Virus record (IMG/VR): IMGVR_UViG_3300045988_148355
Span: 58,966-122,965 of that record
Direction: 5' to 3' (one strand)
Length of the DNA: 64,000 bases
DNA from: a virus
How positions within the stretch are numbered: position 1 is the first letter of the stretch; each line of letters opens with the position of its first letter. Below the pieces are notes generated by a model, which saw only the letters and a list, made by a program, of their open reading frames with translations, was not told the origin of the DNA and did not search any database. Positions 1 to 29,136 of this stretch are shown here, piece after piece. Made by a program: the position numbers and the translations under genes.

Positions 1-2
1 CT

Positions 3-773
3 GGATATATTATTAATAATAAATTAAATACTATTACTAAAGATACAACTCTTAATGATAGTATTAGCAAGTTAATTGATAATAGCGACAGTAAATATAA
101 TACTTTATTAGGTCAAACTAATAATAGTTTCGGTAAAGATGCTGTTCCAACTCTTTATGGCTTAAGACAAGGAATTAATAGCGATAGAGATAGTATTAGT
201 AATTTAAGTGATAAAATTGATGTTCTGAACGGAGCAGAATCTACAACGAATTCTGTGACTTATAGTATTAAGTAGGCTATTAATAAATTAGATAAAGCTG
301 ATAATAAGGTAGATAAACAATTTGTCACCGCTGTTGAGGAAAAAGATGGTCTGATAACTGTTTCAAGAAGCGCCTTACAAGAAAGCGATTTACCTATTAC
401 TTTTGATGGAACTTATAGTAATAGTAATAAAGTTGCTACTATGAGTAGTTTAAATACTTTGAAAACAAATCTTTTAGGTGGTTATACTGGTACATTAGCT
501 GATGTAAATACTCTTGCAAGTAGTAAATTAAATGAAAACGCGGTGCGTGATCTTACATATAATGCGACTTCTGGAAATAATGGAGCTAAAACAATAACAG
601 GAATGTTTGATTTAATTGTAGAATTATAGAGTAAAAATACACAGTTAAATACAACTATTAAAGCATTATAGGATAAAGATACGGAATTAAATAAATTGAT
701 TACAGAATTAAGAACAGATGTTGATGAATTAAAAAAGAAAATAAATGCTAATACTCCATCTGAAACAACTTAA
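3..773 (+). CDS. 3' part of a coiled-coil tail fiber/structural protein (5' end outside window); in-frame TAG at 273, 627, 669; stop TAA 771
   Basis: Frame 0 is open from the window start to TAA 771 apart from three TAG codons. Residues are Ser/Thr/Asn-rich with a C-terminal heptad-like stretch. Track ORF 441..629 is one fragment of it. Confidence 0.55.
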
Positions 774-780
774 TTTAAAT

Positions 781-815
781 AAAGGGTTTGGTCTTAATAG
801 GCCAAACCCTTTTAG
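781..815 (+). terminator. rho-independent terminator
   Basis: Hairpin aaagggtttggtc / gaccaaaccctttt followed by a T-rich run directly after the TAA. Confidence 0.5.
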
Positions 816-861
816 TATTAATTAAAAAGATTTTATAAATAATAGAAAGGAGTCGATTATC

Positions 862-1443
862 TTGCCTAATACATTAAATAAATATGTAAAATTTGTCAGA
901 GGTTCTAAAGTTGCTTTTGAAAATTTAGGAACAAAAAGAGACAATGATACTTTATATTTTATTTATGGAGAAAATGATTCTTCTGGAGAACTTTATTTGG
1001 GTAATCGTCTAATTTGCGGTGGAATTAGTTCTGCAGGTAAGTTAAGCGATTTAAGTGATATTGTTCTTAATGAAGTTAAAGCGAATCAAGTTTTAATTTA
1101 TGATGAAGGACAAAAGAAATGGATTAATTAGGGTTTAGAAAATAATGAAACCTTAATCAATTCTATTGTTGAAAAATTATCTACAGAAGAGAATTTAGCT
1201 AAATTAGCTCCTGTTTTTAAGGGCGTAGTTCCAGGTTTAGTTCCTGTTTCCTTGCATGAAACTAAAGGAAAACATATTCTTACCGATGCAGGTACTTGGG
1301 TGAATATGCCAGTGGGAACATTAACTTAGGGAGATATTGAAACAATTAATATAGCTAATAAATATTTAGTAGATAAGGGTCCTGATAATTTGGTAACTCG
1401 TGTTGAAGCAGTTGAACAAACTGTTTCTTGGGCTGATATTTAA
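862..1443 (+). CDS. tail-fiber-like protein carrying the phage fiber N-terminal motif (KFVRGSKVAFENLG...LYFIYGE...GELYLG); TTG start; TAG at 1129 and 1327; TAA 1441
   Basis: RBS aaggag 8 nt upstream of the start. Track ORF 862..1131 continues in the same frame through two TAGs to TAA 1441. Confidence 0.55.
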
Positions 1444-1457
1444 AGGAGTGAAAAAGA

Positions 1458-3125
1458 TTGAACGTTAAGTTTTTAAAAGGCTCTCAAGCCGAATTTGAAA
1501 GAGTGGCAGGTAGATATAAACCTGGTGCATTTTATTTAGTAATTAATGATGATAAGTCCGCTGAGGATTATAAAAAACCAAGTCGTCTTTATTATGGTGT
1601 AGATGAAAATAATTGCGTTCCTGTAAATCAAGGTATTAATGTAATTAATACTACCGCAGATTTACCTCAAAGTTTTACTCAAAACACCGCTGGCGAATTT
1701 TATTATGTAAAAGATAAAAATATTTTATGTATTAATAATGGTAAAGATTGGATCCAAACTAATACCGATACTGTTTTAGATACTGATAAGAAGAATAGTA
1801 ATGTATCAGTAAATAGTAATCCTGAAAAACCTAATGGAGTTTCTATAACTAATACTATTGCTGATAGTAGTGGTAATATTATTACTGAAACTTATGATGT
1901 TGTTGGCAGTGATTATATTCAGGTTGAAGCTGTTCCCGCAGTTGGTGATAAAGGCGTAGATACTGTTAAACTAAGTTTAAAAGGAATTAATTATCAATTA
2001 GGTTCTTCTTTAAATAAAAAAACTTTAAATGTTAATTTAAAGAATGATGATGCTGATGCGGGTAATTTTAATATTATTGCTGGTAGTAATGTTAATATTG
2101 CTGAAACTTCCACAGGAAATTATACTTTAAGTGTAGACAAAGCGGTCAATGAATTTGCCATTAACAATCATGCTACTGGTACTGGTTTTACTGCTTCTAT
2201 TACTGGTCCTGGTATTGAAGGAAAAAATAGCACAACTTTATCTGCGGATATCGATCCAGAAATTGCTTTAGAAGGTAAAAGCGGTGGTTATAAGTTCAAG
2301 AATGGCGTTTTAACTCTTCCTGTTTATAGTAAGCAAGATATTGATAATCAACTTAGAACCATTAATGCTATGGTGTTTCGTGGTGGATTTTAGATTACCA
2401 ATGGAGCAATTGTATATGATGATACAAAAATTAATACAAATCCTAATATTGCTAAGGGTAATACTTTTATTTACACTGGAGCTGATGATGTTCTTTGGGA
2501 TGGCCATTATTTACGTACCGGAGATTTAATTATTGCTTCTGGCGAAGAGGTTGAAGGAATTATTACTGGTACTATTAAATGGACTTATGTGCCTTCTGCT
2601 GATGATCCTGTTACTGAAGTTGAAGGAGCCAGTGATAATAGTACTACTGGTTTTATTATTAAACTTGGTTCTACTAAAGAACTTTTAGATTACACTCTTA
2701 ACGGCGAAAGTGGTATTGTTTTAGAAACAAAAGTTTTAGAAGATTTAAAAGGTCAACCTACTAATTCTAAAGTTGTTACTATTAAACATAGCAATACTTT
2801 AACTGTAAATGATCCAGTCCCTCAAGATTATGCTGATGAACAAACTATTACTATTAACGAGCCAACTGAGATTGATGCCCAAGGACATGTGGTAAAATCT
2901 ACTCAAAAGACTTTTACAGTAAAAAATACTCACCAAGAAATTTTGGCGAATGGCTATACAACGAATGGAACTGATACTTTAATTCCTAGACTTAAAATTG
3001 CTGGTGCTGATTTTGAAAATGAACCAATTACTTTTACTAGTGATAGTTTAAAAGTAAATGTTTCTGCAACAGCTGAAAAATCTAACGCTAAAGTCAATTT
3101 TGAGTTAGAGTGGGGAACATTCTAA
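1458..3125 (+). CDS. tail fiber protein (~555 aa) formed by merging track ORFs 1458..2393 and 2589..3125 across in-frame TAG 2391
   Basis: Both ORFs are in frame 0 and the stretch between them has no TAA/TGA. N-terminal motif FLKGSQAEF...LYYGVDENN matches the phage tail-fiber N-terminal domain. RBS aggag upstream. Confidence 0.6.
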
Positions 3126-3186
3126 GGGCAATACTATTTAATAATAAATATAATTTTTTCTATTTTATATAGAAGAATGTTTTTAT

Positions 3187-3226
3187 GGGGAAAGATGAAA
3201 TATTCTTTCCCCATATTTTTTTTAGG
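3187..3226 (+). terminator. rho-independent terminator
   Basis: Hairpin ggggaaagatgaaatattctttcccc followed by a T9 run. Confidence 0.5.
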
Positions 3227-3243
3227 ATAGAAAGGAGTAAATT

Positions 3244-6200
3244 ATGTCTAAGATACGTTTTCGTCCCGTTTAGGGCCCAGAAGAAAAAATAAAGGCATAT
3301 CCTCAAACTGATGGATATTTTTATGTGGCAACAGATACAGGACGAGTTTATTTAGATACAGCGACTGAGAATAAAATACCGATAGGCTCAAGCGGAGTTT
3401 AGGTAATTTATGGAACTGAAAAAGAAGTCGAAATTGATTATGATGCAGATGAGAATCCAATTGGATATTCAATTCATTTATCTAATTTATCAAGTTCTAA
3501 TCCTCATATAAATGATTTAATTTTAAATAGCGATGGAGCATTTTATCGTATTAAAAAATTTAAATTAAATGATGATAAAGAAAAAGTTGCAAGTTGTGAA
3601 AAATTATTGGCGGGTGGTGGAAATCAAGACCAAGAAATTAAAGTAAATGGTACTGTTTCTTTAACTTTAGATGGTCCTACTGATGTGCTTAATGGTGAAT
3701 CAGTAAGTGTAACCGCTCTTGTAAAATGTAGAACAATAAACGGAGATCCAGTTCTTGATTCTGTTGAAGGCACTTTAACTATTAGATAGAAAAAAAGTGA
3801 TGGTTCTTGGGAAGATATTTATAGTGAAGCAAAAACTTATCAACATAATAAACCAATTACTATTGATATTTCAGCTCATTTAAGAAAATCTTCCACACAT
3901 GAAATTGAGTTTATTGTTAGTAAAAATAGTGATCCTACTAACAATCATTTTTCTACAACTAAGAAAACTCAATTTATAACTACTCATGAATTAACTCTTT
4001 AGTGGTAGGAAAGTAAATTTAATAATAATTTGCCTTTTGACAATGGTTAGATTAATATTACTTGGTTAATGTCCAATAAAGTAAATAGCGCTATTGAAGT
4101 TTATTTTGATAATTATTTAGTTTTAGATAAAGAATATGATAATACTAATACTAGAAATGAAGATAGTATTACTATAACAAAGAATACAATTATTTTAAAT
4201 AATAATAATGATTCTATAATAACTTTAGCAAATTATTTTCTTCATGGAGAACATACCATTAAAGCTAAACTTTATTTAGTTAATAGTGGTGAAAAAGGAA
4301 ATGGTACTGATTTTATTGAGAAAGAAATTGTTATTTTAGATAAAAGTAGCAAAACTCCTTTAATTTGGACTGGGGATTTTAAAACTGAATATTACACTTA
4401 TGAAACTATTAGAATTCCTTTTAGAGTATATGATCCCAATGTAATAATTGCGAAAGTTAGCTTGTATAAAAATGGTGTCTTATTAAGTACTCGTGAAATT
4501 GCTGATTAGACTATATGGCAATATTGGGAAATTACTAATCTTTCTGTTAATGATAGTTCCTATTATACAATTAAAGTAGGAACTGAGCCATATGATTATT
4601 CTCGTAATTTTACTTTTACAATTAAAATAGACCCATTGAGAAATATGGAATTGGCTAGAAGTAATGATTTAAAAGTTAATTTTGTTGCTACTGGACGCTC
4701 TAATTCTGAGAGTAAATTAAGCCGTGAAACATTAGAAATTAATGGTAAATATGCGGAATTTAAAAACTTTAATTGGTATAATAATGGTTGGGTTTTTGAT
4801 GATAATAATACTACTTGTTTAAGAGTTAGTAATGGAGCTGAAGTCTCTATTCCTATTGGATCATTATCTTTTGATAATAGTTCTTCTACTCCTACTCATA
4901 GTATTGAAATTCAATTTAAAATTAGAAATCCACAAAATTATTCTAAAGTAATTACAAAGTATACTCGTTATAAAGCAAGTGATGATTCTGGAAAATCTTG
5001 GACTGATAGAGACGCTTGGAATGCATTTAAAGATTAGTCTACTTATGTTAATTATGATGAATTCTTAACAAAAAAATATTTACCAGAACATCCAGAAGCA
5101 CCAAGTTATGATGAATTAACTTATAATGGATTAGATCAAGATTTTAATTTAAATAATCTTGTTTGTGCTTACGGTTCTTTAAAAAATCCTTTAGGTATTT
5201 ATTTTAGCCCTCAAGATGCTGTATTTACAGCTAATGGCGATGAAGAGACTGTTTCAGTTGATTTTGTAGAAGATGAAATGTTATATTTAACATTTGTTTA
5301 TACAAGTTCTAAGCCTGGCCATACTGGTGGAGATTCTAAATTATTAGAAATTTTTTTAAACGGTGTTTTAACTAGTGTAGCTCGTCGTTCTGATAAATCT
5401 AGCAATTCTGCTTGGACAATTGATTCTGATGTGATTAAATTTATGTCTAATACTTGTGATATTGATATTTATAGTATTAGAGTTTATGATGCTAGCTTAA
5501 CTATTCCTGACGTAGTTTAGAATTATGCTTTTGATAAAAAAGATATTAATCAATGGGACCAAAAAGATTTATATGATTATAATACTATTTTAAACGATTA
5601 CGTATTTTCTTATCGCAAAATGCTTGATTACAATACTGACCATAGTGATAAACCATTAATGCCATATATTATTTTAAAAACTACTAAAAATAATAGTGAA
5701 AGCACTGATAATAGACTTCCATACTCTAAAGAGAATGGTGCTCAAAAAGGAACTATGGAATTCGTAAATGTCCCATTAGATATTGCTTATGCTAAGGGCG
5801 AACTTGATAAAATAGTTGAAAAAGAGGGTTGGAAACCAGTAATAGATGAAGAAACTAAGGAAATAAAATATACTGCGGTATAGAATTATTATTTACATCA
5901 TTGCCCCAGCTTTATAACTCTTTTTGATAAAGCAACATTTTAGGTTTAGGGAACTTCTTCTCGTAATTATCCAAGACGTAATTATAAGGCTAAATGTAAA
6001 GAAGCTATGTTTATGAATAGAGGACCTTTTGAATCTATTTATAAAGAAGAAGAAGCAAATAATAATTTAAATACAAAAAGTAAGAGTTATCTTAAATTTT
6101 TCTATATGGATAATAATACTGTTGGTACTACTAAGTTTACTCTAAAAATTGATTTTATGGAATCTTCTGGAGATTATAATAGAGGATTTGCTAATTTAGT

Positions 6201-9200
6201 TAATGAAACTTATTCTAAGCATCCAATAGAAGATTATCAGGAGTCTTTTGATAAATATGATTTATATGAAAATGCTGATGATTATAGAACTTCTATGAAA
6301 GGATATCCTGTTTTAGCATTTCATTGGCCTTCAACTAATGACAATGAATATAGTGAAAATGATATTATTTATATTGGAAAATATAATATGTTATTAGATA
6401 AGGGGTCTGATGAATGTTTTGGATTTAAACCTGATAAAAAGGTTTTATAGAATCAAATTAATGGAACTCCAAAAGTAAGAGATATTGCTGAATGTTGGGA
6501 ATTTTAGAATAATTCAAGAACATATTGTTCTTTCCGTGATCCTTGGAATAGATATAAATTATCTTTTAGACCTCCATTAATGGATGATAAAAATTCAACA
6601 GGTTACTTAACTTCTGGCGGAGCTCCAATAGTTGCTGACTCTTTCGAAGTTAGATATAACTCTAATGATGATTTAATCACAGACCAATTATTTAAGTGCA
6701 TTTCAGCGGAAGCTACCGACGCAGATAAGATAATTGAATTTACTGACGCAATAAATAATACAGTTCCCGATAGATTAAAATCAGAAACCATTATTGATAA
6801 TTCTACTGGCATTAAACATAAACAATGGACTATTACTAATCCAGGACAAAATCCTATCATCTTTGATATGAAGAATAGAAATACTTCTCGTGAATTACTT
6901 CTTGCATTAATGTCAAATTGGGAAGATGCCGTAAGTTGGGTTTGGAGTACTTGTTTAGATTGTAGCATTGATTTTGATGGAGTTTTATATGAAATTCCTT
7001 CAATGGGTCAATATGAGAAAATAGATTTAGCTGAAGCTAAGTATGAGCCAAATAAATATTATCTATTTGATAAAGTTGATGAAAATGGTAGCGAAACTTA
7101 TAAAATTGCCACTGAAGATTTTAATTTAGAAGAAAAATATTATATTTATAATAAAGACAGTAAAGTTTATAGTATAATTAAATTAACTGATGATGATAAT
7201 AAAGTTTATTAGATAAATAAATACTATATTTTATAGAATTAGGATAATAAAATTTATATCTTAGATTCTGAAAAATATAATCCTTATACAACTTATTATT
7301 CTTTTATTGAAGATGAGAGCCAAATTGATGATAGATGGTTATTACCTACACCGATAACTTATAACTCAATTACTTACCATAAAGATAGTAAGGAATATCG
7401 TCAAGCTAAATTTAAAAATGAGTTAAGCAATTATTTTAATATTGAATATTTAGCTACTTACTTTTTAATGACTGAAATTTTTGAATGTTATGACTCTCGT
7501 GGTAAAAATGCGATGTTTGCTTCTTGGGGTCCTCAAAAAGGAAATATTGAAAAAATCACTGGAATTCAACATTATATTTGGTATCCTATTTTTTATGATA
7601 TTGATACTCAATTAGGTATTAATAATACTGGTATTCCATCATTTGAATATTATGTTGATGCTACTGAAGATGGTAGTTATTCTACTAATGATAGTGTATT
7701 ATGGAATAATTTCTATACTTTCTTTAAGAGCAAAATTGTTGATAAATACAAGCAATTAATGGGTAAGCCAAATGGATCTTATGATTAGAGCCAAGTAAAA
7801 CAAATTTTTAAGAAAGAATCTGGAACTTCCTCTAAAAAAAGTGATGTTGTTGATAAATGGTATAAAACAGATCCTTCTTTATTCCCAGGTAGTTATGCTG
7901 TATAGGGAGAGCGTCCTATTATTGCTTTAAATTTAGATGAAGAATATAAATATATTATTCCAACTAATTCAGCGGCCAAGGATACTATTTTTGGTCGTAT
8001 TACTAATGGTGGTTAGTATGAAGTAGAAACTGATTAGTATTTTTATGCTTTATAGGGTGACCGCAATCTTTATCGTTCTCAATTTTTAACTAATCGTCTT
8101 AATTATATTGACTCTTGGTTAACCGTAGATGAATATTCTGGAGATAGTGGTAGTAATAATATTATAAGTCGTATTTCTGCTAACAATCCGAATACTACAT
8201 CTGATGAATGGATTGAAGGAACTAATAATTAGGGATTAACTAATTTAATACCAAATTCTCCTTATTGGAAAGATGGAGTTGAATTTGGCGCTAAAAATCA
8301 TATGTTCGATGGTGAATATTGGATTGAGATGGAACCAGCACGTCGTTCTTATGTTACTGTTGGAACAGACGGAGCAAATTTCCCATCTTAGAAATATGAT
8401 GGTTTAACTCCAGTTAGATTTACTGCCCCAGACTTAAAAAAAGGTATTATGTCAAGTGGTAATTATCGCGAACAATTATATTATATTTACGGACTAGAAC
8501 AAATGAAATCTCTTGGAGATTTAAGTAAATTATATTTCCAAGAATTATTCATTAGAGGTAAAGCTAATAAATTAGTAGATTTATTATTAGGATATGATGG
8601 TCTTTCCGAGCAAGGAAAAGAATATAAAAATAATGATGTAAATAATTGGAGTTATCCTAGTGAAGGTATGCCTCTATTAAAAGAAATGAATCTTTGTAAT
8701 ATTAAATTTTTAAATCCAGTAGCTTTAGATTTAACTAAAAGTGAAAAATTAGAAAACTTTAGAAATACCGGTTCTAATGTTACTAAAGTTTAGTTTGCTG
8801 AAGGAGTTGCTTTAAATACTTTATATTTAACTGATTATACAAATTACTTAAGTTTAATAGAAGCAAATCTTTTAACTAAATTAGTTACTAAATATGTATA
8901 TCCTACAGTTAATCCTATTACTAATCGTCTTGAGGTTGCAGAAGAAAATAAGGGGTTATATATTAAGAATCTAACGGATGTCGGAGATACCGCAATTACA
9001 ACAAGTATAAAAACTTTTGATATCCGTGGTGGTAATTTAGATTATTATTCTTATGAATTATTAAGACGTTATTATCTTGGGTGTGAAAAAAGTAATTTAA
9101 TGGGATGTGAAATTAATTTAACTAATGTCCAATGGAGTCCTTATAGACTGTTAAATGATGATAAAACAGAATTGAATAGTAATATTGAGTATTATAAAGA

Positions 9201-10944: not shown

Positions 10945-10953
10945 GGATAAATT

Positions 10954-18421: not shown

Positions 18422-18425
18422 ACCT

Positions 18426-19026: not shown

Positions 19027-19034
19027 ATAAAAAA

Positions 19035-19080: not shown

Positions 19081-19081
19081 A

Positions 19082-19510: not shown

Positions 19511-19587
19511 AAAAAATACCTCCTTCCATTAACTTCTAATATATTTTAAAAGAAAGGAAGGAGGATTATTTATTTAAGGCCTATTTA

Positions 19588-20100: not shown

Positions 20101-20133
20101 GTAATTACCTCCTTTCTTTAAGGTTTGAGGTAA

Positions 20134-20652
20134 TTACTTTGAAGTTGAGCCAAATCCTCCAAGGCGATCACCAGAAGCATTATCATCTTCGGTGATTAAA
20201 TAAGGTTTAATAATACCTTGACCAATAACATCACCTTTATGAAGTTGAATATCAAAAGGAGATAAATTAATCATTTGAAAATAAATATGTCCTTCATTAT
20301 CAGAATTATTATAATAATCTGCATCAATAATTCCTACACCATTGGCAAGAATAAGCCAATATTTTAAAGGACAAGAACTACGAACTGATAATTCAAGATA
20401 TGTATTATCATTTAATTCACATTTAATTCCAGTAGGCACAAGAGTTGGTTTTGCTTTAAGATTTTTTGTCATATTACCCATATCTTCAAGAGAAATTGAA
20501 TCAAAATAACGTGTTGGAAATCTATTTAACAAATTCTTGTATGCTGGAATTACAATATCTTCCGCTACTGTAAAATCGTAGCCTGCGGATTTTGCTGTTT
20601 TTCTTACAGGCAAAACCGCATCAGGATATTTGCTTACTCGTTCAAACTTCAT
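20134..20652 (-). CDS. dut: dUTP diphosphatase
   Basis: dUTPase motifs AGYDF, LVPTGI, GVIDADY and RLGGFGSTSK. Confidence 0.75.
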   Translation of the reverse strand: MKFERVSKYPDAVLPVRKTAKSAGYDFTVAEDIVIPAYKNLLNRFPTRYFDSISLEDMGNMTKNLKAKPTLVPTGIKCELNDNTYLELSVRSSCPLKYWLILANGVGIIDADYYNNSDNEGHIYFQMINLSPFDIQLHKGDVIGQGIIKPYLITEDDNASGDRLGGFGSTSK

Positions 20653-20900
20653 TAAAAGCTTACCTCATAATTTACATCAATATTACTAATAGGATCTTTT
20701 TCATCATTGAATTTCTTAACAAGAGTGACTTGATACCATTCATCGACAATTTCACCCTTAGCCTTTTTTTCTTTCTTTACTGAACTATACTTAGCTAAAA
20801 TATATTTAGTTTCAGCCTTAGCCTCATCAATAAGCGCGGCCGCACTTTCCTCATTATCTACACGATAAACTTCTGTAGCACTTACAAGATACTTATTCAT
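20652..20900 (-). CDS. hypothetical protein
   Basis: Track ORF with a TAA stop. Confidence 0.3.
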   Translation of the reverse strand: MNKYLVSATEVYRVDNEESAAALIDEAKAETKYILAKYSSVKKEKKAKGEIVDEWYQVTLVKKFNDEKDPISNIDVNYEVSF

Positions 20901-21160
20901 TAACCTACCTCAACTTTAATTTCTTTTCTATTGGAATAATTTAAACTATTACTTTCATAAATTTTTGGAATTAATTCATTAATAAAATCTTCAATACCAT
21001 ATAAACGTATAGTATCAGTATCGTTCTTATAACAAGATGCTACTAAAACATTTGGAAGATCAGAAATACTACAAGTTCCAATAGTTACTGCCATTCCGTC
21101 ATCATAAGTTTTAAAAACATTTTGTTCCATTGAAAATAAATTAATATTACAAACAATCAT
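20900..21160 (-). CDS. hypothetical protein
   Basis: Track ORF. Confidence 0.3.
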   Translation of the reverse strand: MIVCNINLFSMEQNVFKTYDDGMAVTIGTCSISDLPNVLVASCYKNDTDTIRLYGIEDFINELIPKIYESNSLNYSNRKEIKVEVG

Positions 21161-21694
21161 TTAATTACACTCCACAATACCAGCATCATATTGGAATAAA
21201 TAAAAACAATAAGATTCATTATCAATATTTATCCAAATTTCAATAGCGCCATCATTATTTTTTTCCCAACCAACAATACTTCCTAATTCTTGACAAAGTA
21301 TAATTACCATACTCGCTACAGAACCAGTTGAAATAATTGGAGGAATATTTTTGTGAAAAATGGTATAATAATTATAATCTTTACATAATAACATATAATA
21401 CATTCCATATTCACTCATTTCATTGATACTACTCATTAATTTATTTAATTCTTCTTCATTGATTGGATTCATTTGTATCATAATATTTTTATTAAAATCA
21501 TATAAATTCATTCCAGTTTGAAATGTAGTAGAATTATCTGATAAACTGTTAGTAGTAGTTCCTATCATTACCCATTCATTTCCCGTGTAATAATATTGTT
21601 TCTGATCTTCACCAGAAATGGCAATAGTTCCTTCTTCGAATTTACGAGGAGAATTATATAATTCTCCCATTGTATTAGTATAAAAAACATTCAT
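21161..21694 (-). CDS. hypothetical protein
   Basis: Track ORF. Confidence 0.3.
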   Translation of the reverse strand: MNVFYTNTMGELYNSPRKFEEGTIAISGEDQKQYYYTGNEWVMIGTTTNSLSDNSTTFQTGMNLYDFNKNIMIQMNPINEEELNKLMSSINEMSEYGMYYMLLCKDYNYYTIFHKNIPPIISTGSVASMVIILCQELGSIVGWEKNNDGAIEIWINIDNESYCFYLFQYDAGIVECN

Positions 21695-21775
21695 CGTTAT
21701 ATAATCTCCTATCTATTTCATAGAAAAATTATATCACAAATTTTCTTTTTTGTCAAGTTTTAAATTAATAATGTT

Positions 21776-22228
21776 CTAATTGCGGGAACCGCGCAAAGGT
21801 AAAGTAATATCCCTTTCCTTTTGGATATATGGTCCATCAATTAGATAATCAGCGGTTTTTAGTATATTCTTAATTCTAATATTATTACTATTCTTTAAAT
21901 CATCGTAAACATATCCAGTCCATATATATATTTTAATGTTTGGATATATTTTTTTAATTTCAGTAATAACTAAATTAGTTAAAAATTCGTTTTCAGGGCA
22001 GAGAGGTTCTCCACCCATAATACAAAGATTGCGCTCAACATTATTTGCATTAATAGCAGTAATTAATTCATCTAATACTTTATTAGTAAATTCTTTACCG
22101 CCATTAAAATCCCACGTTTCAAGATTCTGACATCCTTCACAATGGTGCGGACACCCTTGTGTAAAAAATGATACACATACTCCGGGTGCCGCTGCCAAAT
22201 CATTCTTTATAATTCCTGCATATTTCAT
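21776..22228 (-). CDS. nrdG: anaerobic ribonucleotide reductase activating protein (radical SAM); terminates at TAG 21776
   Basis: Cluster CPHHCEGC matching CxxxCxxC. Size matches NrdG. Readthrough of the TAG would add 13 low-complexity codons before a TGA. Confidence 0.75.
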   Translation of the reverse strand: MKYAGIIKNDLAAAPGVCVSFFTQGCPHHCEGCQNLETWDFNGGKEFTNKVLDELITAINANNVERNLCIMGGEPLCPENEFLTNLVITEIKKIYPNIKIYIWTGYVYDDLKNSNNIRIKNILKTADYLIDGPYIQKERDITLPLRGSRN

Positions 22229-24495
22229 TCTAATGCTCCTGTATGTTTTACTCTTGCTTCGACTTCTTTTTGTTTACCCCAGTTAAAAGCAGTTTTATAA
22301 TTGCCTGTAAGATAGCCAGTTACACGACGTAATTGTTGAATATTGTGGCTCCCGCACTCAGGACAAGAATCATTAAATTCATCACAATAACCACATTCAA
22401 GGCAAGTATCATTAGGAACATTTACTGCGAAATAAGGAATATCTTTATCCATTGCATAATTAACGATAGTTTCAAGAGCATCAATATTATGTTTTACAGT
22501 AGAATCAAGTTCGACATAGGTAATACATCCCGCAGAAGAATAACCAGTTAACTCAGATTCGATATCAATTTTATCAAAAGGACTCATTTCTTTCCATACT
22601 GGAACGTGAATACTATTGGTAAAAAATTCTTTATCACTAACATTAGGAATTTCGCCATATCTTTCTTTAAATTTTGTCATAGCTGTATAACATAAATTTT
22701 CTGCGGGCGTATAGTATACACCAAAATTTAATTTATATTTTTCTTTATATTCAGCGCATCTTTCTTTAAATAATTGTTCAATTTGTTTAGCTAATTCCAT
22801 TCCTTCTGAAGTGGTATGGTCTTTACCAATGAGAATTTGAAGAGTTTCTGCCAAACCTAACTGACCAATAGCAAGAGTTCCATGTTTAAGAGCAGAACGA
22901 ATTCCCTCTTCTGGGATATAGCCTGCCATAACATTATTTTCATACATAAATTTCGCGGAGCCTGGATCTTGAGAACAAATCCATTCAAAACGTTCCATTA
23001 ATTGAATACGTGCTTCATTGATTTTTCTATCGAGTAAAGACATAAATCGTTCTACGCCAATTTTAGTCCGCTCTTCTTGAGACAATGATTTATAGTCATC
23101 CCAATTATCATTTTCATTTAGAGTAACGGCCATCATTGCAAGAGTTGGAAGAATAATAGTAACTGGACAAATATTTCCACGTCCATCTTTAAGCTGGCCG
23201 AATCCATTAATATCCCATCCATTCGCAGTTCTACATCCCATTGTGGAAAAATAAGTGCGAGGATCATTAATATCATATCCCGCATTACCAGACCAATCAA
23301 CATTTGCATAATTAGGATAAAGGCGTCTCGCGGTGCTTTCTAATGCTAATCTATATAAATCATAGTTAGGATCACCAGGTTTACGGTTAACACTTTTCAT
23401 ACATTGGAAAATTCCACAGGGAAAAATTGAAGTCTTATGCAATTTACCAAGACCTTCAATGGAGACGTCTAATAATGCCTTAGTTACCATTCTACCTTCA
23501 GACTTGGTGCAAGTGCCATAGTTAATGCTTGTAAATGGTAATTGGTTACCACTACGAGATTGTAAAGTATTAAGATTATGATAAAGACCTTCTGCAGCTT
23601 GATGAGTCTCACGAGTAGTCATTTTCATAGCATACTTATATGCTTTTGGAAATGATTTATAAAAATCATCATCAATAGGAGTTTCTTTACTATAACAACC
23701 ATCATACTTACTCATATCTAATCCTTCATATAAAAATTCAATACCATCATTGAAATGTTTAAAGAAAGATTTTCTTACATAAGGAACCATAGTCCAATCT
23801 AAGTGAGTGGCACTAACTCCGCCAAACTAACAAAGACTTTGGATTTGAAAAATAACAGCAATTAATTGAAATGCTGTATTAATTGAGCCTGCTGGACGAA
23901 CATCTGCTTGACGAGTATTAAATCCATTAGCAAGCAAATCATCAAAAGGAATACTTAAACAGTTATGAGAACCGACATAATAAGAATCAAGATCGTGAGT
24001 ATAAATAATATTATCAATATGGTTCTTACGAGCCATAGGTGAAAGTAAATAATCAAGTGCAAGTTGTTTGGTGACAACACTACTTGCTTCACCTATACGA
24101 CCACCAAATGAATGTTCATCAACGTTAGCATTTTGATTTTTTACATTATTACCATCAAGTTTTTCACGAATGGCTTTAATAAAATCATCTTTTTTATTAC
24201 GAGCAACTTCTTTCTTATATCTATATCTGATATAAGCACGAGCAACATCGCGTCGCTCAGAACGCATTAGATAATCTTCAATCCAATCTTGAAGATCTTC
24301 TACTCCAACACTTCCATCAGGGAAATGATTTATTTGTCTTTCAATGTCTTCTGCGATATCTTTTGCGGTATCATCTTCATATAGTTTACCATCAACTTCA
24401 ATAAATGCTTTATTTATTGCGTTAATAATTTTCTTTTTATTAAATTGAGTTATACTTCCATCACGTTTAATAATATACAATTTTTTTGCCTCCAA
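22225..24495 (-). CDS. nrdD: anaerobic ribonucleoside-triphosphate reductase NrdD, a single ~755-codon gene with one in-frame TAG at 23827-23829
   Basis: Track ORFs 23827..24495 (ATP-cone, N-terminal region) and 22225..23790 (glycyl-radical C-terminus, CxxC and RVTGY) are in the same frame. They are joined by TAG plus 12 sense codons. Stop TGA overlaps the nrdG start. Confidence 0.85.
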
Positions 24496-24554
24496 ACTAA
24501 ATATAGTAGTTCTTTTAGAATATTCTACTATATTTAGGTTTTGTTAGTAAATAA

Positions 24555-25160
24555 TTATTTATCTTGGTCCATTTCCGCCCATTGCTTAACTTTTTGAGTT
24601 AAAAGGTTAACAATATTATTGTAATCTTCTAATGTTTCATTTGTCATAATATTGCATTTAATATCATTCATTAGTTGAAATTGAATTTCATCAGTAGTAT
24701 ATCTTCTAATGATTTCATTTACATCAGGGTTTTTTTCTCTATTTAATTGTCTAATTAAGCGTGTCTTTCCTTTAGCGGTGATATAATATATCTCCAATTC
24801 AATTCTATCATCTTTAAGAAGACTTATAATTCCTTCAGGATTAAAAACACCAATATTAACTTTACTATCAGACAAACTATCAATACTTGTACCATAATAC
24901 CAATTATTAAAAGAAGTGGTTTCTAACATTTTATTTTCATCAATTAAAGTTAAAAACTGATCATCTGAAACAAAATGATAATTTTTGTCTGCTATTTCTT
25001 TTTCACGCTTCGGGCGCGTAGTGTGGCTTATAATAGGATTTAAATATTCTTCTAAGTGAGAAAAGGTAGCCATCATTAGGCTATCTTTTCCCGCACCAGA
25101 TTTTCCACATAATGCAATAATTTTATACATCTTCTTCAATTCCTCCTTGATAACGAGCAT
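24555..25160 (-). CDS. guanylate kinase-like nucleoside monophosphate kinase
   Basis: P-loop GKSGAGKDS and the TTRPKR...YHFVS signature. Confidence 0.65.
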   Translation of the reverse strand: MLVIKEELKKMYKIIALCGKSGAGKDSLMMATFSHLEEYLNPIISHTTRPKREKEIADKNYHFVSDDQFLTLIDENKMLETTSFNNWYYGTSIDSLSDSKVNIGVFNPEGIISLLKDDRIELEIYYITAKGKTRLIRQLNREKNPDVNEIIRRYTTDEIQFQLMNDIKCNIMTNETLEDYNNIVNLLTQKVKQWAEMDQDK

Positions 25161-28100
25161 CTTTTAAAACTAAATCGCCATTGGATAAAATTTCATCAAT
25201 TTTATATAATTGATGTCCTCCAGAAGAAGCATATTTTTTTGACATGAAATTATCTCCATTGCGGATTCCAGAGACTACAATCATATTTCCGCGATTAAAC
25301 CAAGATTTTTCAACAATATGTTTGGTTCCATCTGCACCGCGCTCTGAAATTTGTTTATCAAACAAACTAAAATATTCTTTTCTAAATTTTACTTCTACAG
25401 GACCAGTAGTAGTAAGAATAGTTACGGTGCTTTTAGTTTTATTTTTTGCAATACAAGTCCCGCAAATCTTAAATAATTTATAAATATGAATAGTATGATT
25501 TCCTTTAGTGAAACTTCTGTCAACTATTGGATCTTCTGGAAGTTTAAAGAAATCTACAAATCCATATTTATCATTGTTAATATTATTCAATTCATGAGTA
25601 TGATAATAATAACAAAGAACTTCCATTTCCCAAGCAGATAAATTATTTTTATTAGCATATTTATTCCAATCATCTTTAAATATTTTTATATTTAGATTAT
25701 TTAAAATTTCATCTTTGTTATTAGCAATCCAAGTGCGAAATATATCCATCCATTTTTGGTATATACCATTCCAAATATTCTCACTTAAAGAATAATTAGT
25801 TCCATCAAATTGAATATTATTATCTTCTCCAATTTCTACTAAGAAATTAATAGCTCGTTCATCAAGTTGATATAGACCATTATTTTTTGTAGTTTTACAA
25901 ATTGCTTTTAAATATCTATTAAATTCATAAATACGGCGAGCCATAATTTGACTTTCATTTTCTTCTGGAAGAAGATCATACTTCATAAGTCCGCCCATAT
26001 TTTGAAGAGTAATTCTTTTCTTTTTATCGCAAGTTTCCCAAATATACCAAACCATTAATTCTTTTCTATCCATCATATTATCAAAGGCTCCGCCTTTAAT
26101 AAGAGAAATCATAGCTTGTTTACCTGGCTTAATACGGTATAAAAATTCTTTAGGATTTGAATAAGGACGATTAGCAATGATTGTATTAACTAATTCATCA
26201 CCAACATTCAGCATACCTTTTAATCCGAAAAGAATTTTATTATTTTCAATATCAGGAGCAAATCCAAATTTAGATTTGTTAATATCAGGAAGACCTACTT
26301 CAATTCCTGCTTTTTGAATGTCACTAATGGCCTTAGCAATTTTTCCATAATCAGTGGCCGCGGTTTTGCGGATTTTACCACTTTTATCAGGGAGATCTTC
26401 AAATGTTACTCCATTAGCTAAATCATCACCTTCAGGAGCATAAATATCTACAATCTCTTCTTCACTATTATCTTCAAGGGAACCGCTATTGACAATTAAG
26501 CAAGCAGTATCCCAATAGATGGGATTAAAATGAATTACTAAGTAAATCATTTGAATTGCCACAAATGAATAAGGAAGAGAGTGATTAAGACTAAATGCGT
26601 ATCCTAATTGAGGAGCAACGGCGATTTCCCAAAAGTATTCAGCAGATTTTTCATTATCAAATTTACTAAATACTTGCTCTCTCAATTGTGGAATTTTAGC
26701 CATTTGTTTTTTAGCAACAATCTTACGCGCAGTATTAGCTTCACCAAGAGTAAAATGAGCCACATCCATAAGGATTTCCATCATTTGCTCTTGGATAGGG
26801 CAACATCCATAATATTTATCACAATGTTTATGCATCTTATCAATTAATTCTTGTGGAAGATGCTGAGCTTTCATTTCATTATCAAATACTTTAATGCCTG
26901 AATGCTGAATGCGATAATATCTATCCTGCTGTGATTCCTTACCTTTTTCAGACATAAGACGCATCATAGCATTGGCTGCTGTCATTTCCATAGGGTCTTG
27001 GGGTTTAAGGCGTTTCGCAATCGCCAAACCAACACCCGTAGAAAATTGGAATACATCTAATACATCACCGGCAGCGAGGTGATCCCAAATTGCTTGATCG
27101 GTTGTATCTATTACTTCTGGATGAATATATTTATTATAAAATTCTCGCAAAGATAATTCTGGAATCTGTTTATCTTTTAGAAGTAATTGATAACAAGTAA
27201 TAATTTTGTCAGAAGCTTCAGTTACGAGGAAATCATATTTTGTATCTCCTGCGGCTTCCGCTTTATGAAGATCCCAACAAGTAATCATATCTCCGCTAGG
27301 AGTTCTCATAAATGATGCGGTATCAAATGGATCGTCACCATATAAAATAACGCCAGAAGCATGAGAAGAACGTTTATTAACCATTCCTTCAATATATACA
27401 ATAATATCCAAAAGACCAGGATATTGATTTACTTCTCGAATAAATGCTTGAACGGGTTTACGGTCTTTTTCCTCATTACCATAAATAACATCATGGATAG
27501 GCCATAAAAATCCACGCTCTTGAGGAATTAACGAAGACATATATTGAGCATTATCAACATCGATTCCTTCTGGAAATTCTTCACTTCTATATCCACGACA
27601 AGCAGTTAAAATACTCTGTTTAGTGCCTTCTGTTCCAAACGTAGCAACTTGAACCAGTCCTAATTCTCCGCGTTCTTTTCTAATTGCTTTAAAAATTGCG
27701 GGGCGTTTACTTGGAGCAAGGTCAATATCAATATCAGGTAATTCTGCGCGCTCCTTATTTAAGAATCTCCAATAAGGAAGTCCCCAACGAATTGGGTCTA
27801 ATTGAGTAATACCTAAAAGATAATTAGATAAAAAACCAGTCGCAGAACCACGTCCAGGTCCTACAATACTTCCACACTCCCAAAATAAATTAATATAGTG
27901 TTGGAAAGTATTAAAATAAGCGAAAAGACAGTCATCTAATTTTTCACCAATATCTTTTATAATATCAGCTTCAATTTCAAGTCGTTCCAAATAATTTTTA
28001 TTATCATAAAGTTGCTTTTCTTGTAAAGCTTTAATACATTCATTTACCCAATATCGTTCTTGAATATTGTCGCTATTAATTAAAGAACAGATAATTGGAT

Positions 28101-29136
28101 ATTTATCGAACCAGTTTGAAGGAATAAATCCTTTCTTATAATCCTTTACTTCAACTTTTGGAATAATTTGTTTTCTTTCTAATGAATAAAAAGAAATTTT
28201 ATTTTGAATCTCTTGAGTGTTATCAAGAATCCAATTTATCAATTCTTTTCCTGTTTTATTACCTTTATCCCAATCATTAGCATAAGGTTCCATTAATTCA
28301 AGAATTTCATCACTTGTCATTAAGTAAGTAAATTTATAGAAATCGTCAACTTCTCTTTCTCCTGGCTTAGAAGTAAGATATGCTTTATGAATGGGTCTAT
28401 CTTCTTTAGTTAAATAATGCGCATCTGTTCCAACTACCATTTTTAAATCAAATGCCTTGGCGATTTGATAAATTTTATGATTTACAATTATTTGCTCAGC
28501 ATCAGTAGACGGCGCACATTCAAGATAAAAATCATCTTTTCCAAATACTTTAATACAAAAATTGATATAATCAATTATTTGATTATAATATTTAGTTTGA
28601 GTTTCAATATCTTTATTTAATTCAGCTTGGAACATTGGTAAAATACAACTACCAAGTTCTCCACCAATACAGGCAGTCGTTGCTATAACATGCCCTTTAT
28701 ATTGTTCCATTACCATTTCAAGTTCACTTTTTAAAGTAGGAACTCGTTCCATTCGTCTATCAACATAACTATGAATCCAAGCAATAGAACTTAATTCTCT
28801 TAATGCTTTATGTCCAAGAGCATCTTTAGCAATAAGAATAAAGTGGTAATATTTTTGTCCGCTATCTCTTGTATCAGTAAGATAAATTTCATTACCAAGA
28901 GCAATAGTAAAATCAGGATTTTTTTCTCTTAATTTCTGCGCATATTGATTTACTTCCATATGCGCAGAAAGGCACTCATGATCTGTAATAGTTATTCCTG
29001 ATAGCCCTAATTCTATTGCTTTGTCAATAAGGGCTTGGGGTCTATTAATACAATCTAATAAACGCAAATTAGAATACATTGTATGATTGTGAATCCCGAA
29101 ATATGATCTCATTCGCACATTCCTTTCATCTTTCAT
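25123..29136 (-). CDS. dnaE: DNA polymerase III alpha subunit (C-family, DnaE-like) with an N-terminal PHP domain; zero TAG codons in 1,337 codons
   Basis: PHP motifs GIHNHTMYS and DHECLS. Catalytic PDIDIDL motif. Confidence 0.85.
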   Translation of the reverse strand: MKDERNVRMRSYFGIHNHTMYSNLRLLDCINRPQALIDKAIELGLSGITITDHECLSAHMEVNQYAQKLREKNPDFTIALGNEIYLTDTRDSGQKYYHFILIAKDALGHKALRELSSIAWIHSYVDRRMERVPTLKSELEMVMEQYKGHVIATTACIGGELGSCILPMFQAELNKDIETQTKYYNQIIDYINFCIKVFGKDDFYLECAPSTDAEQIIVNHKIYQIAKAFDLKMVVGTDAHYLTKEDRPIHKAYLTSKPGEREVDDFYKFTYLMTSDEILELMEPYANDWDKGNKTGKELINWILDNTQEIQNKISFYSLERKQIIPKVEVKDYKKGFIPSNWFDKYPIICSLINSDNIQERYWVNECIKALQEKQLYDNKNYLERLEIEADIIKDIGEKLDDCLFAYFNTFQHYINLFWECGSIVGPGRGSATGFLSNYLLGITQLDPIRWGLPYWRFLNKERAELPDIDIDLAPSKRPAIFKAIRKERGELGLVQVATFGTEGTKQSILTACRGYRSEEFPEGIDVDNAQYMSSLIPQERGFLWPIHDVIYGNEEKDRKPVQAFIREVNQYPGLLDIIVYIEGMVNKRSSHASGVILYGDDPFDTASFMRTPSGDMITCWDLHKAEAAGDTKYDFLVTEASDKIITCYQLLLKDKQIPELSLREFYNKYIHPEVIDTTDQAIWDHLAAGDVLDVFQFSTGVGLAIAKRLKPQDPMEMTAANAMMRLMSEKGKESQQDRYYRIQHSGIKVFDNEMKAQHLPQELIDKMHKHCDKYYGCCPIQEQMMEILMDVAHFTLGEANTARKIVAKKQMAKIPQLREQVFSKFDNEKSAEYFWEIAVAPQLGYAFSLNHSLPYSFVAIQMIYLVIHFNPIYWDTACLIVNSGSLEDNSEEEIVDIYAPEGDDLANGVTFEDLPDKSGKIRKTAATDYGKIAKAISDIQKAGIEVGLPDINKSKFGFAPDIENNKILFGLKGMLNVGDELVNTIIANRPYSNPKEFLYRIKPGKQAMISLIKGGAFDNMMDRKELMVWYIWETCDKKKRITLQNMGGLMKYDLLPEENESQIMARRIYEFNRYLKAICKTTKNNGLYQLDERAINFLVEIGEDNNIQFDGTNYSLSENIWNGIYQKWMDIFRTWIANNKDEILNNLNIKIFKDDWNKYANKNNLSAWEMEVLCYYYHTHELNNINNDKYGFVDFFKLPEDPIVDRSFTKGNHTIHIYKLFKICGTCIAKNKTKSTVTILTTTGPVEVKFRKEYFSLFDKQISERGADGTKHIVEKSWFNRGNMIVVSGIRNGDNFMSKKYASSGGHQLYKIDEILSNGDLVLKDARYQGGIEEDV

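What the first reader, a model, noticed from the sequence alone, without database searches (positions are those of the whole stretch)
1..29136. Strong asymmetry of TAG usage: late/structural genes are saturated while core replication genes are free of it
The giant ORF carries ~33 TAGs in ~2,566 codons (~1.3%), and the other + strand structural genes carry 1-8 each. In contrast the 1,337-codon DNA polymerase, topo A (807), topo B (604), ligase (404), primase, Sak4, dUTPase and Gmk have none, while NrdD, Dda, DnaB and RuvC have 1-3. This matches the model in which early genes are translatable with the unmodified host code and late genes require a phage-supplied suppressor, acting as a translational timing switch and host-takeover lock.
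Basis: seen in the sequence. Interest (0 to 1): 0.7.

Follow-up and report, generated by a model that had tools for sequence, protein, structure and literature searches.

The report
Uneven amber-codon use in recoded phage
This is part of a roughly 195-kb gut phage that reads the stop codon TAG as glutamine and uses it heavily in tail, lysis and homing-endonuclease genes but almost never in its polymerase, gyrase, ligase and primase genes, which is a clear example of a pattern already described for such phages.

Summary
With TAG read as sense, the window has 75 genes and 125 in-frame TAGs. The + strand tail/lysis block plus the endolysin use TAG for 31% of Gln codons (73 TAG in 6,186 codons). 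Replication and nucleotide-metabolism genes use it for 5.9% (14 in 7,021; Fisher p = 4e-13). Pol III alpha, GyrA, GyrB, ligase, primase, Sak4, RNase H, dUTPase and Gmk have 0 TAG in 136 Gln codons.

TAG aligns with CAA/CAG in relatives and with the conserved Gln of NrdD, so this is genetic code 15. There is no tRNA in the window. All seven close relatives examined carry a tRNA(CUA) about 41 kb beyond the right end.

The split is by gene, not by module. RecJ (6), RuvC (3), DnaB (2), NrdD, NrdG and Dda (1 each) carry TAG, and all seven homing endonucleases carry 2-5. A sister lineage keeps the same ranking (RecJ 14, Dda 8, NrdD 7, Pol 1).

The timing-switch reading is the published model (Borges et al.). 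It fits the data but is untested here, and "replication needs no suppressor" is not correct. This is a new member of a known kind, of modest interest.

The parts
3..19047 (+). Tail-fibre/host-recognition and lysis block of 16 + strand genes (two - strand genes, g11/g12, are embedded in it). 64 in-frame TAGs, about 31% of Gln codons. It continues leftward out of the window.
   Evidence: gene table. (holin phrog_13712; giant ORF phrog_14959). (giant-ORF homologue sits after the tape measure in Bacteroides phage BKO1-TP4). (left-flank genes hit tail PHROGs and use TAG for 30-75% of Gln codons).
3244..10944 (+). Giant ORF of 2,566 codons with 33 in-frame TAGs (41% of its Gln codons). Probable tail-tip or host-recognition protein.
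   Evidence: most of its TAGs are CAA/CAG in relatives..
14697..15107 (+). Holin with 1 TAG, followed by a hairpin plus T-run at about 15110-15155.
   Evidence: phrog_13712, E = 1.3e-35. (sequence).
55575..56879 (-). Endolysin (Phage_lysozyme2 + Amidase_2) with 9 TAGs in 434 codons. It is the most TAG-dense annotated enzyme on the - strand.
25123..29136 (-). DNA polymerase III alpha (YorL-like), 1,337 codons, 0 TAG among 51 Gln codons.
   Evidence: 0-2 TAG across 43 relatives.
46396..48819 (-). GyrA/ParC-like topoisomerase subunit, 807 codons, 0 TAG.
51452..53266 (-). GyrB N-terminal part (ATPase + Toprim), 604 codons, 0 TAG.
50283..50483 (-). GyrB C-terminal piece, separated from the N-part by a GIY-YIG gene. 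No TAG in the homologous part. Three TAGs lie upstream in the same ORF, and its start is uncertain.
   Evidence: GyrB_C match at residues 67-117 of ORF 50283..50666. (no intron model matched).
45090..46304 (-). ATP-dependent DNA ligase, 404 codons, 0 TAG.
34989..36092 (-). DNA primase, 367 codons, 0 TAG.
   Evidence: phrog_47, E = 6e-34..
39229..40224 (-). Sak4-like AAA_24 ATPase, 331 codons, 0 TAG.
20134..20652 (-). dUTPase, 0 TAG.
24555..25160 (-). Guanylate kinase, 0 TAG.
48740..49264 (-). RNase H, 0 TAG (only 2 Gln codons).
22225..24495 (-). NrdD, 1 TAG at codon 223. This codon aligns with the Gln of the QYGG motif in T4 NrdD and in 9d3x.
   Evidence: CAA in 14, CAG in 10 and TAG in 13 relatives.
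21734..22228 (-). NrdG activase, 1 TAG (codon 151; CAA/CAG in 16 relatives).
29427..30626 (-). Dda-like SF1 helicase, 1 TAG here and 6-8 in sister lineages.
37038..38570 (-). DnaB helicase, 2 TAGs (codons 23 and 59), both inside the N-terminal domain match.
32570..34318 (-). RecJ-like ssDNA exonuclease, 6 TAGs in 582 codons (20% of Gln codons). An outlier within the replication class (p = 0.001).
   Evidence: (phrog_2484, E = 2e-153). (14 TAGs in L017).
19588..20031 (-). RuvC-like resolvase, 3 TAGs in 147 codons.
36279..36983 (-). Homing-endonuclease family gene, 2 TAGs.
   Evidence: phrog_374, phrog_9084.
42726..43739 (-). GIY-YIG domain protein, 4 TAGs.
44473..45039 (-). Homing-endonuclease family gene (paralogue of 36279..36983), 3 TAGs.
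49264..49950 (-). GIY-YIG homing endonuclease, 3 TAGs.
50611..51300 (-). GIY-YIG homing endonuclease inserted between the two gyrB parts, 5 TAGs.
53248..53997 (-). GIY-YIG + NUMOD homing endonuclease, 3 TAGs.
61871..62353 (-). HNH endonuclease, 2 TAGs.
   Evidence: phrog_2255.

Best explanation
The window is about one third of a roughly 190-197 kb human-gut tailed phage that uses genetic code 15 (TAG = Gln).

TAG use is set gene by gene:
- About 30% of Gln codons in tail, host-recognition, lysis and homing-endonuclease genes.
- About 14% in a second tier: RecJ, RuvC, DnaB, NrdD, NrdG and Dda.
- Essentially none in Pol III alpha, gyrase, ligase, primase, Sak4, RNase H, dUTPase and Gmk.
- Essentially none in the block of small genes at and beyond the right end of the window.

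Decoding depends on a phage tRNA(CUA). It lies outside the window, in a tRNA array at the upstream end of the - strand transcription direction.

The most likely function is the published one. Proteins whose mRNAs contain TAG cannot be completed until the suppressor has reached sufficient efficiency. The yield of a protein with n TAGs scales as e^n, where e is the per-codon read-through efficiency. Zero-TAG genes are therefore made at once, 1-2-TAG genes soon after, and 6-33-TAG genes (nucleases, lysin, tail proteins) only when suppression is nearly complete.

Shown here: the code, the bias, its conservation in relatives, and the presence of the tRNA in relatives.

Inferred: the temporal order, the standard code of the host, and the adaptive value.
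For: Code 15:
- ORF restoration when TAG is read as sense.
- NrdD TAG223 aligns with the conserved Gln of QYGG.
- Window TAGs align mainly with CAA (367) and CAG (93) in relatives; the next most frequent are AAA and GAA.
- New TAGs in the Pol gene of relatives fall on Gln codons of the window in 5 of 8 cases.

Bias: 31% versus 5.9% of Gln codons, p = 4e-13. HEGs 29%, p = 6e-7 against replication.

Not due to composition: out-of-frame TAG is present in Pol.

Gene-specific and conserved. In sister lineage L017/L042 (Pol 82% identical) RecJ has 14 TAGs, Dda 6-8, NrdD 6-7 and RuvC 5. In the same lineage Pol has 1-2, primase 2, dUTPase 2 and Gmk 1. Core versus the rest gives p = 1e-5, and the Spearman correlation with the window is 0.52, p = 0.008.

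The pattern extends beyond the window. Four large left-flank genes, two of them with tail-protein PHROG hits, use TAG for 30-75% of Gln codons. The 25 kb to the right is almost TAG-free, including an 832-aa protein with 0 TAG in 28 Gln codons.

Suppressor. tRNA(CUA) is present in 7 of 7 close relatives and in 3 more distant ones. It has an unpaired U1 and G73, which are Gln-type identity features (identity rules from general knowledge). An HDV-like ribozyme candidate starts within 1-2 nt of its 3' end.

The model itself is published for other clades, including preferential recoding of lysis genes and of an intron endonuclease.
Against: - There are no expression or proteomic data. Early and late classes are inferred from function and position.
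- DnaB, NrdD, NrdG and Dda carry TAG, so the boundary is not early versus late, and replication itself would depend on the suppressor.
- Pol has one TAG in some near-identical relatives, so avoidance is a strong bias, not a rule.
- One lysozyme-domain gene (31677..32516) is TAG-free while the other has 9.
- g03, a tail-fibre-like gene, has only 1 TAG in 16 Gln codons.
- The ten-gene "core" set was defined after seeing the counts.
- The tRNA was found in relatives (Pol 98-99% identical), not in the window's own record.
- The host and its genetic code are unknown.
Confidence: 0.6

Rival explanations
1. There is no regulatory role. After the code change, TAG simply accumulates by C-to-T mutation of CAA/CAG. 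It accumulates fastest in rapidly evolving or recombining genes (tail fibres, HEGs, accessory nucleases). Strongly constrained or recently acquired genes lag behind, so the asymmetry is a by-product of evolutionary rate and gene age.
For: TAG/CAA polymorphism is very frequent among close relatives in the giant ORF. For example, codon 269 is CAA in 16 relatives and TAG in 2. Some TAG-free genes have atypical CAG-rich Gln usage and lie in GC-richer segments, which suggests recent acquisition: the SPFH gene has 18 CAG against 3 CAA, and g46 has 7 against 2. TAG load in replication genes differs between lineages, as expected for an ongoing spread.
Against: CAA-to-TAG is synonymous under code 15, so protein constraint should not slow it. 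Pol uses the phage-typical CAA (44 CAA, 7 CAG), so it is not a recent import. It stays at 0-2 TAG in lineages 18% diverged in protein, where the neighbouring RecJ and Dda reach 14 and 8. The ranking of genes is reproduced in the sister lineage.
Confidence: 0.2
2. This is toxicity or containment gating rather than a clock. TAGs are concentrated in products that damage DNA or the envelope: RecJ, RuvC, seven homing endonucleases, the endolysin and the holin. These cannot be made in any cell lacking the phage suppressor, for example after an abortive or partial infection, after transfer of DNA to another host, or from leaky early transcription.
For: On the - strand nearly all annotated TAG-rich genes are nucleases or lysis enzymes. 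RecJ, RuvC and the seven HEGs together have 31 TAG in 115 Gln codons. All other annotated replication genes have 5 in 200 (computed). Borges et al. also found lysis genes and an intron endonuclease to be preferentially recoded.
Against: Other nuclease-type genes are TAG-free: RNase H, PhoH/PIN and two metallophosphoesterases. Tail-fibre proteins are not toxic, yet they are the most recoded. This reading overlaps with the main model and cannot be separated from it by sequence alone.
Confidence: 0.3
3. The pattern is an artefact of gene models, frameshifts or assembly errors. The apparent in-frame TAGs would be real stops between separate short genes.
For: Start codons of several genes are uncertain. 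TAGs near the 5' ends of the longest ORF versions of GyrA, PhoH and g25 disappear when the likely start is used.
Against: Pfam and PDB alignments run straight across TAGs: NrdD 8-754, the RecJ PHROG 2-577, the DnaB N-domain 13-96, and the endolysin domains. The same positions are CAA/CAG in relatives. An independent assembly is 100% identical over 20 kb. The public gene calls already use TAG-sense models of the same lengths.
Confidence: 0.02

Closest known systems
Stop-codon-recoded (code 15, TAG to Gln) gut phages as described by Borges et al. 2021/2022 (Lak, crAss-like, Jade, Sapphire, Agate, Garnet, Amethyst clades).
   Same: - Low-GC gut phage.
- In-frame TAG concentrated in structural and lysis genes.
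- Replication genes variably recoded.
- Phage-encoded suppressor tRNA.
- About half of the genes (36 of 75) contain TAG, within the published 26-71% range.
- Relatives in the same clade use code 11, 15 or 4.
- A homing endonuclease is preferentially recoded.
(searches compared)
   Different: Nothing in kind. Details specific to this case:
- A graded three-tier pattern inside the replication strand, conserved in a sister lineage.
- All seven HEGs are recoded.
- One of two lysozyme-domain genes is TAG-free.
Clade membership (Jade, Sapphire or other) was not tested, because no terminase sequence is in hand.
crAss-like phages with proteomically verified TAG to Gln (Peters et al. 2022, PMC9523058).
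   Same: The same reassignment, and the same idea that recoded structural proteins appear late.
   Different: A different phage group. This one has a Pol III alpha replicase (39% identical to SPbeta YorL) and a genome of about 195 kb. There are no proteomic data for this phage.
Theta (minimal HDV-like) ribozymes adjacent to phage tRNAs, including suppressor tRNAs (Kienbeck et al. 2024, PMC10879173).
   Same: In relatives, a 55-nt HDV-like motif starts within 1-2 nt of the 3' end of tRNA(CUA). This is the arrangement reported for theta ribozymes.
   Different: It scores only 26 bits against an Rfam HDV family whose gathering score is 44. It was not compared with the authors' own motif. It lies outside the window.
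phAss-1 / 'Phassvirus' TAG-recoded gut phages (Babkin et al. 2023, PMC10607447).
   Same: A human-gut phage with TAG in many characteristic ORFs and with suppressor tRNA genes.
   Different: phAss-1 is 136 kb. No nucleotide similarity between window 1..25000 and any GenBank phage record was found. Relatedness was not otherwise tested.

Membership tests
Genetic code 15 phage (TAG reassigned to Gln) | In-frame TAGs interrupt conserved genes, and reading them as sense restores full-length homologues. | tested here: met
   NrdD, RecJ, DnaB, Dda, NrdG and the endolysin all align across TAGs. A 2,566-codon ORF is restored.
Genetic code 15 phage (TAG reassigned to Gln) | TAG positions correspond to Gln in homologues. 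| tested here: met
   CAA+CAG = 460. They are by far the commonest of the roughly 1,070 non-TAG codons aligned to window TAGs. QYGG motif of NrdD. 5 of 8 TAGs in relatives' Pol fall on Gln.
Genetic code 15 phage (TAG reassigned to Gln) | Suppressor tRNA with anticodon CUA encoded by the phage. | tested here: inconclusive
   None in the window, even at relaxed ARAGORN thresholds or in Rfam. Present in 7 of 7 close relatives about 41 kb beyond the right end. The window's own genome beyond 64 kb could not be read.
Genetic code 15 phage (TAG reassigned to Gln) | Gln incorporated at TAG in the protein. | not testable with these tools
   Needs proteomics. This has been done only for crAss-like phages.
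Recoding as regulator of late/lysis genes (Borges model) | Structural and lysis genes enriched for the recoded codon relative to standard Gln codons. | tested here: met
   31% versus 5.9% of Gln codons, p = 4e-13. Endolysin 36%. The holin is only 8%.
Recoding as regulator of late/lysis genes (Borges model) | A set of genes, including those expressed first, readable in standard code. | tested here: met
   39 of 75 genes (8,655 codons, 250 Gln codons) have no TAG. The right-flank block of small genes is nearly TAG-free. That these genes are expressed first is an inference.
Recoding as regulator of late/lysis genes (Borges model) | The host uses the standard code. | not tested
   Host not identified.
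Recoding as regulator of late/lysis genes (Borges model) | TAG-containing genes are translated later than TAG-free genes. | not testable with these tools
   Needs an infection time course.
Theta / HDV-like ribozyme linked to tRNA(Sup) | HDV-like double-pseudoknot fold with its cleavage site abutting the tRNA 3' end. | tested here: inconclusive
   L096:1068-1122 gives 26.1 bits against RF02682 (gathering score 44), E = 0.0018 in a 106-nt search. It starts 1-2 nt after the tRNA.

The most novel reading that the evidence does not exclude
The number of TAGs per gene acts as an analogue timer. Protein yield falls as e^n, where e is suppression efficiency and n is the TAG count. The conserved ranking would then fix a multi-step order of appearance as tRNA(CUA) accumulates:
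- Pol, gyrase, primase and ligase: n = 0.
- DnaB, NrdD, NrdG and Dda: n = 1-2.
- RecJ, RuvC and the HEGs: n = 2-6.
- Endolysin: n = 9.
- Giant tail protein: n = 33.
On this reading nucleases and lysis functions are deliberately placed behind the highest thresholds. That would make stop-codon load a tunable, evolvable expression parameter rather than a binary early/late switch.
Probability: 0.2. Interest if true: 0.6.

Novelty: new member of a known kind. Interest (0 to 1): 0.3.

Why it matters
For annotation, this phage must be called with table 15, otherwise about half of its genes are fragmented.

For biology, it is a clean additional case for the idea that recoded stop codons gate translation of tail, lysis and selfish-endonuclease genes. 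Its relatives offer a natural experiment. There are more than 40 related contigs with code 15, code 4 or an apparently standard code, and with different TAG loads in the same genes. These could be used to test whether selection, rather than drift, keeps TAG out of the polymerase.

It does not open a new question. The model, including the bias in lysis genes and in a homing endonuclease, is already in the literature.

Tried and rejected
- Nucleotide search of window 1..25000 against GenBank phages found nothing. Annotation had to come from HMM libraries.
This blocked direct retrieval of the window's own left flank.
- Pfam gave nothing useful for the + strand block. Its structural nature rests on PHROG and synteny hints only.
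- ARAGORN at relaxed thresholds gives only false positives inside coding regions and no CUA anticodon.
- The Trp-like tRNA(UCA) of TGA-recoded relatives has no counterpart in the window.
- No group I intron or other Rfam family was found around the split gyrB.
- I considered that TAGs near 3' ends (NrdG 151/164, g43 97/103, g12 151/157, g16 125/140) might be true stops. I rejected this because relatives have sense codons there and the alignments continue.
- I considered composition or strand bias as the cause. I rejected it because the coding strand is G-rich in both blocks and out-of-frame TAG is present in TAG-free genes at about 11 per kb, against about 16 per kb in the late genes.
- I did not attempt clade assignment, host prediction or structure prediction.

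Full report
**What the window is**

The sequence is 30% G+C. Genes run on the + strand from 1 to 19047. They run on the - strand from 19082 to 64000, so the two blocks converge at about 19.06 kb.

Under the standard code the + strand block breaks into short ORFs. With TAG read as sense, a 2,566-codon ORF with 33 in-frame TAGs appears at 3244..10944. I curated 75 genes with TAA or TGA stops. I checked starts against public gene calls on an independent assembly that is 100% identical over window 8188..28421.

HMM searches identify the following on the - strand:
- RuvC, dUTPase, NrdG, NrdD and guanylate kinase.
- A 1,337-aa Pol III alpha, 39% identical to SPbeta YorL.
- A Dda-like helicase, a RecJ-like exonuclease, primase, DnaB and Sak4/AAA_24.
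- ATP-dependent ligase, GyrA, RNase H and a split GyrB.
- PhoH/PIN, an SPFH protein and phosphoesterases.
- An endolysin (lysozyme + amidase).
- Seven homing-endonuclease genes: four GIY-YIG, one HNH and two of a further HEG family.

The + strand block is poorly annotated. It has a holin and several proteins with tail-fibre-like N-termini. The giant ORF has its only informative homologue directly after the tape-measure and tail genes of a Bacteroides siphophage. The four large genes just left of the window, read in a relative, include hits to tail-protein PHROGs. I therefore accept "tail/host-recognition plus lysis module" as the likely label. It is an inference.

**TAG is glutamine**

- NrdD codon 223 (TAG) aligns with the Gln of the conserved QYGG motif in two solved NrdD structures.
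- Across 95 loci from relatives, window TAG codons align with TAG (1,016), CAA (367) and CAG (93). The next most frequent are AAA (87) and GAA (58).
- At conserved sites the alternatives are almost only CAA/CAG: NrdD 223, NrdG 151 and Dda 215.
- In the opposite direction, the few TAGs in the Pol genes of relatives fall on Gln codons of the window in 5 of 8 cases.

This is genetic code 15.

**The asymmetry**

| Class | Genes | TAG / codons | TAG as share of Gln codons |
|---|---|---|---|
| Late (+ strand block plus endolysin) | 17 | 73 / 6,186 | 31% |
| Replication and nucleotide metabolism | 16 | 14 / 7,021 | 5.9% |
| Homing endonucleases (every one has TAG) | 7 | 22 / 1,625 | 29% |
| All other genes | 35 | 16 / 5,151 | 10% |

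Source.

- Late versus replication gives an odds ratio of 7.3, p = 3.6e-13.
- The result survives removal of the giant ORF (p = 1.3e-7). It also survives replacing annotation with strand alone (p = 2e-8).
- Ten replication genes have 0 TAG in 136 Gln codons. The other six have 14 in 102: RecJ 6, RuvC 3, DnaB 2, and NrdD, NrdG and Dda 1 each.
- The ten were picked after seeing the data, so I looked for independent support.

In the sister lineage L017/L042 (Pol 82% identical) the counts are as follows:

| Gene | TAGs in L017/L042 |
|---|---|
| RecJ | 14 |
| Dda | 6-8 |
| NrdD | 6-7 |
| RuvC | 5 |
| Pol | 1-2 |
| Primase | 2 |
| dUTPase | 2 |
| Gmk | 1 |

Core versus the rest gives p = 1e-5, and the per-gene rank correlation with the window is 0.52, p = 0.008. 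Pol is stop-free in most of 43 relatives, down to 43% identity.

The pattern also holds outside the window. Left-flank genes use TAG for 30-75% of Gln codons. The 25 kb to the right consists mostly of small genes with almost no TAG.

- The split is not "structural strand versus replication strand". RecJ, RuvC, all HEGs, the endolysin, g20 and g34 on the - strand are as TAG-rich as the tail genes.
- DnaB, NrdD, NrdG and Dda need read-through. A full replication apparatus cannot be made with the host code alone.
- Pol carries one TAG in some 98-99% identical relatives.
- One lysozyme-domain gene (31677..32516) has no TAG, while the endolysin has nine.
- For the short TAG-free genes, zero TAG is not individually significant.

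**The suppressor**

The window has no tRNA. I walked outward through IMG/VR relatives. A tRNA array lies on the same strand as the - strand genes and upstream of them.

All seven close relatives that reach the far part of the array carry a tRNA with anticodon CUA, between tRNA-Val and tRNA-Tyr. In genome 118370 this is about 41 kb beyond the window's right end. Three more distant TAG-recoded relatives have one too.

The tRNAs start with an unpaired U1 and have G73. From general knowledge these are Gln-type identity features.

Within 1-2 nt of the 3' end lies a 55-nt match to an HDV-family ribozyme. It scores 26 bits, below the gathering score, with E = 0.0018 in a local search. This is the arrangement reported for theta ribozymes next to phage suppressor tRNAs.

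Still more distant relatives instead carry a Trp-like tRNA(UCA) and gain ORF length under TGA-sense. The clade therefore contains both TAG-recoded and TGA-recoded lineages. Some relatives show no gain in ORF coverage under either reassignment in the region examined.

**Mechanism**

The best-supported explanation is the published one. TAG-free genes can be translated immediately. TAG-containing genes wait for the phage suppressor.

Simple arithmetic shows why counts matter. At 80% read-through per codon a 2-TAG protein is made at 64%, a 9-TAG protein at 13% and the 33-TAG protein at 0.06%. Even at 95% the giant protein reaches only 18%. So late in infection suppression must be nearly complete. 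Genes with more TAGs should appear later.

This graded reading, and the concentration of TAG in nucleases and lysis enzymes, go slightly beyond the literature and are untested.

The main rival is drift without function. It is weakened because CAA-to-TAG is synonymous, yet Pol stays nearly TAG-free in lineages where its neighbours have many.

**Comparison with what is known**

Borges et al. describe, for several clades of gut phages, all of the following:
- Alternative code in structural and lysis genes.
- Variable use in replication genes.
- 26-71% of genes with in-frame stops.
- Suppressor tRNAs.
- Mixtures of codes 11, 15 and 4 within clades.
- Preferential recoding of lysis genes and of an intron endonuclease.

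Peters et al. showed Gln at TAG by proteomics in crAss-like phages. The present case fits this description in every tested respect. It is a further member, not a new kind. I could not assign it to a named clade.

**Verdict**

Novelty: new member of a known kind. Interest: 0.3.

Noticed in passing
window 50283..53266 (-): gyrB is split. The N-part (ATPase + Toprim, to about residue 586) ends at a TAA. A GIY-YIG endonuclease gene follows. The roughly 60-aa GyrB C-terminal tail is then encoded in a separate ORF. No group I intron or other Rfam family matched. From general knowledge, this resembles the T4 gene 39 / mobA / gene 60 arrangement.
   Followed up: partly
L096:978-1067 versus L101:479-551 (relatives, outside the window): Two quite different tRNA(CUA) bodies occupy the same locus with identical flanks in closely related genomes. 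One is a 90-nt form with a roughly 21-nt extra arm in the variable region. The other is an ordinary 73-nt form. The long-arm form is unusual for a Gln-type tRNA, and its charging identity is unknown.
   Followed up: partly
L096:1068-1122 (relative, outside the window): A candidate minimal HDV-like (theta-type) ribozyme starts 1-2 nt after the 3' end of tRNA(CUA). It scores 26 bits, below Rfam's gathering score.
   Followed up: partly
L028:12245-12316, L029:12269-12340, L037:22168-22239: Distant relatives (Pol about 53% identical) carry a Trp-like tRNA with anticodon UCA. It sits just beyond the homologue of window gene g20, close to where the two gene blocks converge in the window. Their ORFs lengthen with TGA as sense. 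The clade therefore has both amber- and opal-recoded lineages.
   Followed up: partly
L024, L033, L036, L038, L040, L041, L043, L044, L047, L050 (Pol gene): In many relatives the Pol III alpha gene is interrupted by insertions of about 0.3-1.8 kb (mostly 1.0-1.2 kb) at two recurrent sites (near residues 458-481 and 845-851), presumably introns or inteins with endonucleases. The window's Pol is uninterrupted.
   Followed up: no
window 15153..15919 (-): A response-regulator receiver gene (3 TAGs) and a following 94-aa ORF lie on the opposite strand inside the + strand block, between the terminator-like hairpin after the holin and the next + strand gene. They may be one disrupted regulator. The function is unknown.
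   Followed up: no
window 59118..60503 (-) and 40372..41319 (-): The SPFH/Band-7 gene and the 315-aa gene use CAG far more than CAA (18:3 and 7:2). The rest of the window uses CAA almost exclusively. Both lie in GC-richer segments. They are possibly recent acquisitions, which would by itself explain their lack of TAG.
   Followed up: partly
L001:14945-17901 versus window about 59000: Relatives 96% identical to the window carry an extra 3 kb between the SPFH and PhoH genes. It includes a radical-SAM protein and is absent from the window.
   Followed up: no
L001:1-1332, L066:8834-11332 (right flank): An 828-832-aa protein with a major-vault-protein shoulder domain lies about 9-11 kb beyond the window's right end. 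It is TAG-free and, like the window's SPFH gene (about 12 kb away), lies on the - strand.
   Followed up: no
window 31677..32516 (-) versus 55575..56879 (-): Two genes share the Phage_lysozyme2 domain. One has no TAG in 11 Gln codons. The other, which also has an amidase domain, has 9 TAGs in 25 Gln codons. They may act at different stages, for example entry versus lysis.
   Followed up: no
L099:2249-18635 (relative, outside the window): A cassette of about 16 kb (roughly 9-17 kb in different relatives) of tail-fibre-like, TAG-containing genes is inserted between two halves of the tRNA array. It is on the same strand as the otherwise TAG-poor genes.
   Followed up: no
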